The notes under the pieces were generated by a model. The model made no database searches. It worked only from the letters and a program-made list of their open reading frames with translations, and was not told the origin of the DNA. The position numbers and the translations under genes were made by a program. A DNA stretch of 64,000 nt from the human T2T-CHM13v2.0 reference genome, Homo sapiens. Every line of letters begins with the position of its first letter. The first letter of the stretch is position 1. The stretch lies in the NCBI RefSeq assembly GCF_009914755.1, contig NC_060931.1; one strand, 5' to 3'. Of the stretch, positions 56,676 to 59,600 are shown piece by piece.

Positions 56676-59600
56676 GGTAAGGGCAGTTCAAAGATGCCCA
56701 AGTAGGAACAGCTCCAGTCTATAGCCCCCAGCAGGCGCAATGCAGAAGATGGATGATTTCTGCATTTCCAACTGAGCTTTGAAGAGTGTAGTGGTTCTCC
56801 CAGCATGGAGTTTGAGATCTGAGACTGGGCAGACTGCCTCCTCAAGTGGGTCCCTGACTCCCAAGTAGCCTAACTAGGAGGCATCTCCCAGTAGGGGCTG
56901 ACTGGCACCTCGTGCAGCCGGGTGCCCCTCTGAGACAAAGCTTCCAGAGGAAGGATCAGGCAGCAACATCTGCCATTCTGCAATATTTGCTGTTCTGCAG
57001 CCTCCGCTGGTGATACCCAGGCAAACAGGGTCTGGAGTGGACCTCCAGCAAACTCTAACAGACCTGCAGCTGAGGATCCTGACTGTTAGAAGGAAAACTA
57101 ACAAACAGAAGGGACATCCACACCAAAACCCCATCTGTACGTCACCATCATCAAAGACCAAAGGTAGATAAAACCACAAAGATGGGGAGAAAACAGAGCA
57201 GAAAAGCTGAAAATTCTAAGAATCAGAGCGCCTCTTTTCCTCCAAAGGAACGCAGCTCCTCACCAGCAAAGGAACAAAGTTGGATGGAGAATGACTTTGA
57301 TGAGTTGGCAGAAGTAGGCTTCAGATGATCGGTAATAACAAAATTCTCCAAGCTAAAGGAGGATGTTCGAACCCATCGCAAAGAAGCTAAAACCTTGAAA
57401 AAAGATTAGACGAAAGGCTAACTAGAATAAACAGCATAGAGAAGATCTTAAATGACCTGATGGAGCTGAAAACCATGGCATGAGAACTATGTGATGCATG
57501 CACAAGCTTCAGTAGCTGATTCAGTCAAGTGGAAGAAAGGTATCAGTGATTGAAGATCAAATGAATGAAATGAAGCGAGAAGAGAAGTTTAGAGAAAAAA
57601 GTAAAAAATGAACAAAGCCTCCAAGAAATATGGGATTATGTGAAAAGACCAACTCTACATCTGATTGGTGTACCTGAAGGTGACAGGGAGAATAGAACCA
57701 AGTTGGAAAACACTCTTCAGGATATCATCCAGGAGAACTTCCCCAACATAGCAAGGGAGCCAACATTCAAATTCAGGAAATTCAGAGAACACCACAAAGA
57801 TACTCCTCGAGAAGAGCAACCACAACCCCAACACACATAATCGTCTGATTCACCAAGGTTGAAATGAAGAAAAAAATGTTAAGGGCAGCCAGAGAGAAAT
57901 GTTGGGTTACCCACAAAAGGAAGCCCATCAGACTAACAGCAGATCTCCCTGCAGAAACCCTACAAGCCAGAAGAGAGTAGGGGCCAATATTCAACATTCT
58001 TAAAGAATTTTCAACCCAGAATTTCATCTCCAGCCCAACTAAGCTTAATAAGTGAATGAGAAATAAGATCCTTTACAGACAAGCAAATGCTGAGAGATTT
58101 TGTCACCACCAGGCCTGCCTTACAAGAGCTCCTGAAGGAAGCACTAAACAAACATGGAAAGGAACAACCGGTACCAGCCACTGCAAAAAGATGGAAATTG
58201 TAAAGACCATTGACACTATGAAGAAACTGCATCAACAAACGGGCAAAATAACCAGCTAGCATCATAATGACAGGATCAAATTCACACATAACAATATTAA
58301 CCTTAAATGTAAACGAACTAAATGCCCCAATTAAAAGACAGACTGGCAAATTGGATAAAGAGTCAAGACCCATTAATGTGCTGTATTCAGGAGACCCATC
58401 TCACATGCAGAGACACACATAGACTCAAATTAAAGGGATGGAGGAAGATCTAACAAGCAAATGGAAAACAAAAAGAGCAGGGGTTTCAATCCTAGTCTCT
58501 GATAAAACAGACTTTAACAAAGGTCAAAAGAGACAAAGAAGGGCATTACATAATAGTAAAGGGATCAATGCAACAAGAAGAGCTAACTATCCTAAATATA
58601 TATGCACCCAATACAGGAGCACCCAGATTCATAAAGCAAGTTCTTAGAGACCTAGAAAGAGACTTAGACTCCCACACAATAATAATGGGAGACTTTAACA
58701 CCCCACTGTCAACATTAGATCAATGAGACAGAAAGAGAACAAGGATATCCAGGACTTGAACTCAGCTCTGCACCAAGCAGACCTAATAGACATCTACAGA
58801 ACTCTCCACCCCAAATCAACAGAATATACATTCTTCTCAGCACCACATTGCATTGCACTTATTCCAAAATTGACCACACACTTGGAAGTAAAGCACTCCT
58901 CAGCAAATGTAAAATAACAGAAATTATAACAGACTCTCAGACCACAGTGCTATCAGAACTCAGGATTAAGAAACTCACTCAAAAACCGCTCAGCTACATG
59001 GAAACTGAACAGCTCCTGAATGACTACTGGGTACATAATGAAATGAAGGCAGAAATAAAGATGTTCTTTGAAACCAATGAGAACAAAGACACAACATACC
59101 AGAATCTCTGGGATACATTTAAAGCAGTGTGTAGAGGGAAATTTATAGCACTAAATGCCCACAAGAGAAAGCAGGAAAGATCTAAAATTGACACCCTAAT
59201 GTCACAATTAAAAGAGCTAGAGAAGCAAGAGCAAACACATTCAAAAGTTAGCAGAAGGTAAGAAATAACTAAGAGCAGAACTGAAGAAAATAGAGACACA
59301 AAAAACCCTTCAAAAGATCCATGAATATGGGAGCTGGTTTTTTGAAAAGATCAACAAAACTGATAGACCGCTAGCAAGACTAATAAAGAAGAAAAGAGAG
59401 AAGAATCAAATAGACGCAATAAAAAATGACAAAGGAGATATCACCACTGATCCCACAGAAATACAAACTACCATCACAGAATACTATAAACACATCTATG
59501 CAAATAAACTAGAAAATCTAGAAGAAATGGATAAATTCCTGGACACATACACCATCCTAAGACTAAACCAGGAATAAGTCAAATCCCTAAATAGACCAAT

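What the first reader, a model, noticed from the sequence alone, without database searches (positions are those of the whole stretch)
57705..58325. Non-allelic gene conversion between two inverted L1s of different subfamilies (main tract)
Seen: 57705-58149 in L1-B is the reverse complement of 41272-41710 in L1-A, with only 4 substitutions and one 6-bp insertion in about 445 bp. The near-identity resumes at about 58195-58320 versus 41103-41228. Their 5'UTRs and 3'UTRs clearly differ (PA7-like versus PA4-like). The tract shares lesions that a retrotransposition-competent parent could not carry: an ORF1 frameshift (aacatagcaagggagccaac), a TGG>TAG stop (gagagtaggggcc) and a 5-bp deletion (ttcttaaagaattttc). 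Inference: the sequence was copied after insertion, probably from A to B, since the tract looks like the older subfamily. About 1% divergence suggests a hominid-era event.
Basis: partly seen in the sequence, partly recalled or inferred. Interest (0 to 1): 0.85.

Follow-up and report, generated by a model that had tools for sequence, protein, structure and literature searches.

The report
Gene conversion between two inverted L1s
About 600 bases of an older, dead L1 retrotransposon were copied into a younger L1 lying 16 kb away in the opposite orientation, a clear but ordinary footprint of DNA repair between dispersed repeats in a MAGI2 intron.

Summary
L1-B (+ strand, about 56690-62275) and L1-A (- strand, about 36960-43575) are 88% identical overall. 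B 57704-58320 and A 41711-41104 differ by only 13 events in 610 columns. That gives a scan score of 337, against a maximum of 147 in 3000 shuffles.

Outside a 32-bp unconverted patch (B 58164-58195) they differ at 5 of 575 sites (0.87%). The flanks differ by 15.9% (5') and 10.6% (3'). Genome-wide, A is the only copy close to B's tract: 97%, with the next best at 91-92%.

I compared both elements with unlinked copies chosen on flank sequence only (28 A-like, 20 B-like). B carries the A-family state at 7 of 7 diagnostic substitutions inside the converted segments and its own family's state on both sides. Nine shared columns occur in 0 of 76 comparison copies. A is therefore the donor and B the acceptor, and the copying happened long after both insertions.

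The 5-bp deletion is a recurrent change in a tandem 5-mer, so it is weak evidence. This is a known kind of event, so interest is modest.

The parts
57704..58163 (+). Converted segment I in the acceptor L1-B. It covers the ORF1 RNA-recognition and C-terminal domains. Since the event B has gained 3 private substitutions, a 6-bp insertion and a 4-bp insertion.
   Evidence: Pfam finds Transposase_22 and Tnp_22_dsRBD pieces spread over shifted frames.
58164..58195 (+). Unconverted patch of 32 bp. A keeps 3 private changes here and B keeps 3 private changes: 5 substitutions and a 1-bp indel in all.
   Evidence: A and B differ at 5 of 32 sites, which equals the flank level.
58196..58320 (+). Converted segment II in L1-B. 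It covers the end of ORF1, the spacer between the ORFs and the first roughly 55 bp of ORF2. There is 1 substitution, at 58285.
   Evidence: (4 of 4 diagnostic sites carry the A-family state).
41104..41711 (-). Donor stretch in L1-A. Its family type and private-mutation load match A's own flanks.
   Evidence: A differs from the A-like majority by 4.2% in the tract and by 5.2% and 5.0% in the flanks.
36960..43575 (-). L1-A, the older full-length L1PA element. Comparison-copy homology ends near 43575. It contains a 209-nt inverted self-copy at 38860-39068.
56690..62275 (+). L1-B, the younger L1PA element (within L1PA2-6, and L1PA4/5-like by primer match). It lacks about 520 nt of 5'UTR at 56775/56776, the signature of a spliced L1.

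Best explanation
This is a non-allelic (ectopic) gene conversion without crossover between two dead L1 elements. They lie head to head in inverted orientation in a MAGI2 intron. Their 5' ends are about 13 kb apart and the two tracts about 16 kb apart.

The older L1-A served as template and the younger L1-B as acceptor. About 590-617 bp of B were overwritten with A's sequence, covering the 3' half of ORF1, the spacer between the ORFs and the first codons of ORF2. A's family-specific bases and A's own decay mutations came with it: a frameshift, two stop codons and a 5-bp deletion.

The most likely route (inferred, not shown):
1. A break or gap formed in B.
2. A resected end invaded A on the same chromatid or the sister.
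3. Repair synthesis copied A.
4. The new strand returned to B (synthesis-dependent strand annealing).
5. Patchy mismatch repair of the heteroduplex left a 32-bp island of original B sequence.

The 5' edge lies about 60 bp downstream of the ORF1 coiled-coil region, where A and B are 16% diverged. That divergence probably stopped the heteroduplex from extending further (inferred).

The event came late, at roughly a tenth of the elements' age. My hand estimate from the counts is about 2.5 Myr ago, with a range of about 1-6 Myr at the rate implied by the elements' own decay, and older if a slower rate is assumed.

No function is expected. It is a neutral repair scar.
For: **Shown**
- Identity jumps from an 84-89% background to 99% in the tract.
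- The scan score is 337 against a null maximum of 147 in 3000 shuffles.
- A is the only genomic copy above 92% identity to the tract: 97% and 1017 bits, against 864 bits for the next best, among 40 scored of 6338 candidates.
- At 7 of 7 diagnostic substitutions in the converted segments both elements carry the A-family state. B reverts to its own family on both sides.
- Nine shared columns occur in 0 of 76 comparison copies. Only 2 rare shared states lie outside the tract.
- In the tract B is 6.1% from its own family's majority and 4.2% from A's. A's load in the tract (4.2%) matches its flanks (5.2% and 5.0%).
- B has only 3 private substitutions in 575 tract sites (0.5%), against 3.8% in its 5' flank. 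The copying therefore happened long after B inserted.

**From papers (passages read)**
- Conversion between dispersed repeats is established. It is commonest between copies less than 10 kb apart (PMC8230782, PMC6598467).
- A break in an L1 can be repaired from other L1s, and an intrachromosomal L1 conversion of 377 bp has been reported (PMC1920257, citing Tremblay et al. 2000).
- The C-terminal half of ORF1 shows little family substructure, unlike the coiled coil (PMC7449397).
Against: - No outgroup or second human haplotype was available, so the state of B before conversion is inferred from comparison copies, not observed.
- The comparison copies are the best-scoring genomic matches to each flank, so they represent close sub-lineages rather than curated family consensuses.
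- At B 58326, just beyond the tract, B has the A-family state and A has the B-family state. I cannot explain this cleanly.
- One diagnostic site inside the patch (58193) shows the B-family state in both elements.
- The 5-bp deletion is recurrent and says little.
- About 88% background identity is low for homologous recombination in mammals, so the initiating homology is unclear.
- No PRDM9-type 13-mer lies in either element.
- The changes brought into B show no GC bias: 16 strong-to-weak against 13 weak-to-strong.
Confidence: 0.9

Rival explanations
1. B was born chimeric. During its reverse transcription the enzyme switched to a transcript of L1-A and back, so the A-like stretch dates from B's insertion.
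For: L1 chimeras formed by template switching are known (recalled, not checked here). B is in any case an unusual, spliced copy.
Against: The tract would then have diverged for B's whole lifetime. B has 3 private substitutions in 575 tract sites (0.5%), against 27 in 715 (3.8%) in its 5' flank. A and B differ by 0.87% in the tract, where about 9% would be expected. The template would also have had to be this particular decayed neighbour.
Confidence: 0.02
2. Assembly artefact. Reads from A were used to build part of B in this assembly.
For: The window comes from a single assembly. No reads or other haplotypes could be inspected.
Against: Within the tract the two copies still differ by 5 substitutions, two B-only insertions (6 and 4 bp) and a 32-bp patch that keeps each element's private changes. 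That is the pattern of an old event followed by independent decay, not of sequence borrowed during assembly. The tract (0.6 kb) is far shorter than the long reads that span a whole 6-kb L1 and its unique flanks (inference).
Confidence: 0.02
3. Opposite direction: B was the donor and A the acceptor.
For: All 28 best genomic matches to the tract share the 5-bp deletion, and their 5' flanks look B-like.
Against: Those 28 were picked by similarity to the tract, by a search that works from rare words, so they are biased. With copies chosen on flank sequence only, 7 of 7 diagnostic substitutions in the converted segments carry the A-family state, and the deletion is found in 1 of 20 B-like and 2-3 of 28 A-like copies. 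B's distance from its own family rises in the tract (6.1% against 3.8%) while A's does not.
Confidence: 0.02
4. Same outcome by a different route or number of events. Either two separate conversions (460 bp and 124 bp) occurred, or a stalled replication fork switched template between the inverted repeats, rather than one break repaired by strand annealing.
For: The tract is interrupted by 32 bp of unconverted sequence. Inverted repeats are known substrates for template switching at forks (recalled).
Against: Both segments show the same low divergence (4 substitutions in about 450 sites and 1 in 124) and the same direction, which fits one event with patchy mismatch repair. Sequence alone cannot separate these routes.
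Confidence: 0.2

Closest known systems
Non-allelic gene conversion between neighbouring Alu elements in primates (passages of PMC8230782 and PMC6598467, which cite Aleshin and Zhi 2010 and Kass et al. 1995)
   Same: A short tract is copied one way between dispersed retroelements of different subfamilies on the same chromosome. It is recognised by switched diagnostic positions and shared non-diagnostic mutations. Cases of an old element overwriting a young one are reported there too (12 cases in PMC8230782).
   Different: Here the partners are 6-kb L1s rather than 300-bp Alus. The distance (16 kb) lies beyond the under-10-kb range where Alu conversion is reported to be enriched. The partners are inverted and only about 84-89% identical around the tract.
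L1-L1 conversion: repair of a break in a chromosomal LINE from endogenous LINEs in mouse cells (Tremblay et al. 2000, seen only as cited in PMC1920257), and the intrachromosomal conversion proposed for locus NCLI34 (PMC1920257, passage)
   Same: An L1 is used as repair template for another L1. The NCLI34 segment is 377 bp at 98% identity to a copy on the same chromosome, so it is similar in size and identity.
   Different: Those cases are experimental breaks or an insertion into a non-classical L1 locus. Here both partners are ordinary fixed insertions, and donor, acceptor, edges and relative date can all be read from the sequence.
Interlocus gene conversion in human segmental duplications (search listing only: PMC3790853, PMC4467073, bioRxiv 10.1101/2022.07.06.498021)
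   Same: One-way transfer of a few hundred bases between paralogous sequences, detected as patches of excess identity.
   Different: Segmental duplications are typically far more alike than these two L1s. Here the paralogy comes from independent retrotransposition of different subfamilies, not from duplication.

Membership tests
Non-allelic gene conversion tract | A sharply bounded stretch of excess identity between two paralogues against a lower background | tested here: met
   0.87% divergence in the tract against 15.9% and 10.6% in the flanks. Scan score 337 against a null maximum of 147 in 3000 shuffles.
Non-allelic gene conversion tract | Shared derived variants that are absent from other family members and confined to the tract | tested here: met
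   Nine columns occur in 0 of 76 comparison copies, all inside the tract. Two rare shared states lie outside.
Non-allelic gene conversion tract | The acceptor's family-diagnostic positions are switched to the donor's inside the tract only, and the flanks are not exchanged (no crossover) | tested here: met
   7 of 7 diagnostic substitutions are switched inside. B has its own family's state at nearly all diagnostic sites on the 5' side and at 4 of 4 sites from 58410 to 58468.
Non-allelic gene conversion tract | The excess identity is not explained by slow evolution of the region or by a third source copy | tested here: met
   Comparison copies decay equally in tract and flanks (3.33% against 3.45% and 3.44%). 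The next best genomic copy is 91-92% identical (40 of 6338 candidates scored).
Non-allelic gene conversion tract | An outgroup orthologue or another haplotype shows the acceptor before conversion | not testable with these tools
   No primate genomes or other human assemblies are held.
L1PA subfamily assignment (A: L1PA7 or older; B: L1PA4/5) | Match to subfamily-diagnostic sequence | tested here: inconclusive
   Primers from Table 1 of PMC12432230 were searched in the window.
- 4F (L1PA2-6) matches B exactly at 57117-57135 and does not match A within 3 mismatches.
- 3F (L1PA4/5) matches B with 2 mismatches and does not match A.
- 3R matches A exactly and B with 3 mismatches.

Private divergence is 5.2% for A and 3.8% for B. 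No consensus library was available.
SpIRE97/622 (spliced L1), for L1-B | About 524 nt of 5'UTR precisely missing between the splice donor and acceptor, with GT...AG in unspliced copies | tested here: met
   In 24 of 28 comparison copies the two sides of B 56775/56776 map about 440-530 nt apart. Among 18 copies checked, the missing piece starts with GT in 17 and ends with AG in 18. The junction has the same form as the SpIRE97/622 entries in the paper's supplement.
Repair-mediated proximal duplication (PMC2671141), for the 209-nt insert in L1-A | A short insert inside a transposable element, copied from a donor less than 5 kb away, with no poly-A tail | tested here: inconclusive
   The donor is 1.46 kb away, in A itself and inverted, at 95% identity. 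It is the best genomic match, 328 against 301 bits. The length lies within the reported range (mean 162 bp, maximum 619 bp). Breakpoint microhomology was not examined.

The most novel reading that the evidence does not exclude
The conversion happened after the human-chimpanzee split, so it is specific to the human lineage and may still vary among people. An old, long-dead L1 overwrote part of a younger, spliced L1 across 16 kb, although the two are only about 84-89% identical around the tract. The same pair of elements also carries a second repair scar, the inverted self-copy in A. Together these would mark this MAGI2 intron as a place where diverged inverted repeats have repeatedly been used as repair templates.
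Probability: 0.4. Interest if true: 0.4.

Novelty: new member of a known kind. Interest (0 to 1): 0.3.

Why it matters
It is a clean, fully resolved example of ectopic conversion between two L1s of different subfamilies. Donor, acceptor, both edges, an internal unconverted island and a relative date can all be read from one assembly.

Such events matter in three ways:
- They distort divergence-based ages and subfamily calls. In the tract B looks older than it is: 6.1% against 3.8%.
- They show that repeats as diverged as about 12-16% and 16 kb apart can still serve as repair templates.
- Inverted L1 pairs of this kind are the substrates for inversions when the same intermediate resolves as a crossover.

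Nothing suggests an effect on MAGI2.

Tried and rejected
- **Secondary tracts.** B 60993-61283 (97% to A) and B 59480-59700 (95%) stood out in the scan, with scores of 126 and 100 against a 95% null of 90. In the genome searches many unlinked copies match B as well as A does (485 against 489 bits, 345 against 350 bits). They are not evidence of conversion.
- **Biased comparison set.** The first set (28 best matches to the tract) all shared the 5-bp deletion. I replaced it for the direction test with copies chosen on flank sequence only.
- **Hotspot motif.** The PRDM9-type 13-mer has 4 matches in the window and none in either L1.
- **GC-biased conversion.** No signal: 16 strong-to-weak against 13 weak-to-strong.
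- **Two-site switch in B.** At 57309 and 57315 B has the A-family state between B-type sites at 57304 and 57328. The A-family state is also present in 10-20% of the B-like copies, so I did not count this as a tract.
- **Khan et al. 2006** is not held. Family ages come from passages of PMC7449397 and PMC5237266.
- **Is B a listed spliced L1?** A search of the held supplement text of PMC5860796 for chr7 entries at 77-79 Mb found none. Matching across the colon is uncertain and long files are cut, so this stays open.

Full report
**What is there**

The window holds two long L1 elements in opposite orientation.
- L1-B is sense on the + strand. Homology to other genomic copies starts near 56690, and the short A-rich tail ends near 62275.
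- L1-A is sense on the - strand. Its 3' end is near 36960, and homology to 24 of 29 related copies ends near 43575.
- Their 5' ends face each other about 13 kb apart.
- blastn aligns them over about 5.5 kb at 87.6-87.8% identity.
- Beyond the element ends the alignment falls to random levels. This is not a segmental duplication.

**The observation**

In 100-column windows identity is mostly 78-92%. It is 99-100% from B 57700 to 58150 and again from 58199 to 58298. Read base by base:
- B 57704-58145 against A 41711-41276 has 4 substitutions and a 6-bp insertion in B.
- B then has a 4-bp insertion (58146-58149).
- A 32-bp patch (58164-58195) has 5 substitutions and a 1-bp indel.
- B 58196-58320 against A 41229-41104 has 1 substitution.

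A maximal-segment scan over the whole pair (5482 columns, 581 mismatch events) picks B 57704-58320. It has 610 columns, 13 events and a score of 337. In 3000 shuffles the null mean was 65.9, the 95th percentile 90 and the maximum 147.

**Is the region simply conserved?**

No.
- A search of the window's own genome with the tract finds A at 97% (1017 bits). The next best copies are at 91-92% (864 bits or less), among 40 scored of 6338 candidates.
- Twenty B-like copies differ from their own majority by 3.33% in the tract and by 3.45% and 3.44% in the flanks.

**Comparison copies**

I used three sets of unlinked L1 copies from the same genome.
- **P1:** the 28 best matches to B 57650-58400.
- **P2:** the best matches to A's 5' flank, 41720-42470. 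28 of the 29 fetched were kept. One dropped out because it had no strong match to the reference segment.
- **P3:** 20 of the top matches to B's 5' flank, 56950-57700.

P2 and P3 were chosen without regard to the tract. P1 was not, and it proved biased (see the lesions below). I compared sites column by column against each set's majority state.

**Direction**

I took the sites where the P3 and P2 majorities differ and each majority is at least 70%.
- On the 5' side (56985-57661), B has the P3 state and A the P2 state at nearly all of about 60 substitution sites and at a 27-28-nt length difference.
- Inside the converted segments both elements have the P2 state at 7 of 7 substitution sites: 57827, 57857, 57959, 58214, 58219, 58242 and 58259.
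- From 58410 to 58468 B is P3-type and A is P2-type again, at 4 of 4 sites.

Distances agree:

| Comparison | 5' flank | Tract | 3' flank |
|---|---|---|---|
| B to P3 majority | 3.8% | 6.1% | 5.0% |
| B to P2 majority | 11.8% | 4.2% | 6.2% |
| A to P2 majority | 5.2% | 4.2% | 5.0% |

In the tract B's distance to the P2 majority (4.2%) equals A's. A is therefore the donor and B the acceptor.

Two sites do not fit neatly:
- At 58193, inside the patch, both elements are P3-type.
- At 58326, just outside the tract, B is P2-type and A is P3-type.

**Shared private changes**

Inside the tract, A and B share about 27 states that differ from the P2 majority.
- Nine columns occur in 0 of 76 copies: 57756-57758, 57782, 57832, 58036, 58047, 58057 and 58237.
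- Several more occur in 1-5 of 76.
- Outside the tract (about 900 bp compared) only two rare shared states occur, at 57076 and 58423. The other shared states there are simply B-family states that A also has.

**The lesions**

Pfam places the ORF1 RNA-binding domain (Transposase_22) and the C-terminal domain (Tnp_22_dsRBD) on pieces in shifted frames across the tract.
- The 1-bp deletion at 57756 shifts the frame. It is private to the pair (0 of 76).
- The TAG at 57979 is shared and is present in 3 of 76 copies.
- A second shared stop, at 58057, is in 0 of 76.
- The 5-bp deletion at 58001 lies in a tandem repeat of a 5-mer. It occurs in 2-3 of 28 P2 copies, 1 of 20 P3 copies and all 28 P1 copies. 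P1 spans at least two sequence backgrounds, and the genome search works from rare words. I therefore read it as a recurrent slippage deletion that the search enriched for. On its own it is not evidence of copying.
- Since the event B has added its own stop (57846) and two small tandem insertions.

**Timing (hand calculation from the counts; inference)**

- The tract shows 5 substitutions in 575 sites, or 0.87%. Three are on B's side and two on A's.
- B's 0.5% in the tract, against 3.8% in its 5' flank, puts the event at roughly a seventh of B's age.
- Two of A's 24 tract differences from its family arose after the event, which puts it at roughly a twelfth of A's age.
- For family ages I used passages of two papers. 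L1Pa7-L1Pa3 emerged 30-10 million years ago and L1Pa5 peaked about 25 million years ago (PMC7449397). L1PA5 is dated at 20.4 Myr (PMC5237266, citing Khan et al. 2006, which I could not read).
- With these ages the elements' own decay implies about 0.17% per Myr per lineage. That places the event about 2.5 Myr ago, or about 0.8-6 Myr for the Poisson range of 5 events. A slower rate would give an older date.
- This rules out a chimera formed when B inserted.

**The patch**

In 58164-58195 A keeps three private changes (58164, 58169, 58174) and B keeps three (58190, the 1-bp deletion, 58194). Six events in 32 bp is the flank level, not the tract level. This island was therefore not converted. One event with patchy mismatch repair explains it most simply. 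Two events remain possible.

**Mechanism**

- **Shown:** one-way transfer of about 0.6 kb with no exchange of flanks.
- **Inferred:** repair of a break in B by strand invasion into A and annealing back, without crossover. A crossover would have inverted the intervening DNA and left hybrid elements, and that is not seen.
- **Position of the edge:** the 5' edge sits about 60 bp into the RNA-binding domain, just after the coiled-coil region, where A and B differ by 16%. PMC7449397 reports that the coiled coil varies strongly among L1Pa7-3 while the C-terminal half of ORF1 does not. This fits the tract lying where homology is better.
- **No supporting signals:** there is no hotspot motif in either element and no GC bias.

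**Family names**

No consensus library was available.
- Primers from Table 1 of PMC12432230 place B within L1PA2-6: primer 4F matches exactly. Primer 3F suggests L1PA4/5, with 2 mismatches. Neither matches A within 3 mismatches. Primer 3R does not discriminate.
- B also has the spliced 5'UTR form that PMC5860796 found only in L1PA1-6.

**Prior knowledge**

- Conversion between dispersed repeats is well documented for Alu, with enrichment below 10 kb (passages of PMC8230782 and PMC6598467). PMC8230782 states that most such studies concern Alu.
- For L1, PMC1920257 cites repair of a LINE break from endogenous LINEs in mouse cells and proposes an intrachromosomal conversion of 377 bp at one human locus.
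- My five literature searches turned up no description of this locus. They cover open-access text only.

The event is a new instance of a known process.

**Other candidates**

Two further stretches of high A-B identity are not supported, because unlinked copies match B equally well there.

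Noticed in passing
window 56690-56900 (junction at 56775/56776): L1-B is a spliced L1. About 520 nt of its 5'UTR are missing. In unspliced copies elsewhere in the genome the missing piece starts with GT (17 of 18 checked) and ends with AG (18 of 18). This matches the SpIRE97/622 class described in PMC5860796 (116 copies, L1PA1-6 only). 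One comparison copy (L023) has the same junction. I could not establish whether B is in that paper's list.
   Followed up: partly
window 38860-39068 and 40527-40735: L1-A contains a 209-nt insert that is an inverted copy of its own ORF2 segment 1.46 kb away, at 95% identity. That segment is the insert's best match in the whole genome (328 against 301 bits). It looks like a repair-mediated proximal duplication of the kind described in PMC2671141, and so a second repair scar in the same pair of elements. The breakpoints were not examined.
   Followed up: partly
window 58001 (and A 41420): The 5-bp deletion in ORF1 lies in a tandem repeat of a 5-mer. It recurs in many unlinked L1 copies: all 28 best genomic matches to the tract, and 3-4 of 48 copies chosen without regard to the tract. 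Nearby partial deletions in other copies also suggest a slippage hotspot.
   Followed up: yes
window 58326 (A 41098): Six bases past the tract's 3' edge, B has the A-family base and A has the B-family base, an apparent swap at a single site. It could be two independent transitions or a trace of the recombination intermediate. Unexplained.
   Followed up: no
window 57309 and 57315: B carries the A-family state at two adjacent diagnostic sites, between B-type sites at 57304 and 57328. This is either a very short second tract or variation within B's family, since 10-20% of B-like copies share these states.
   Followed up: partly
window 34624-34636 and 34993-35005: Two identical matches to the 13-mer recombination-hotspot motif lie 370 bp apart, outside both L1s. 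The window has 4 matches in all, against 0.55 expected by chance.
   Followed up: no
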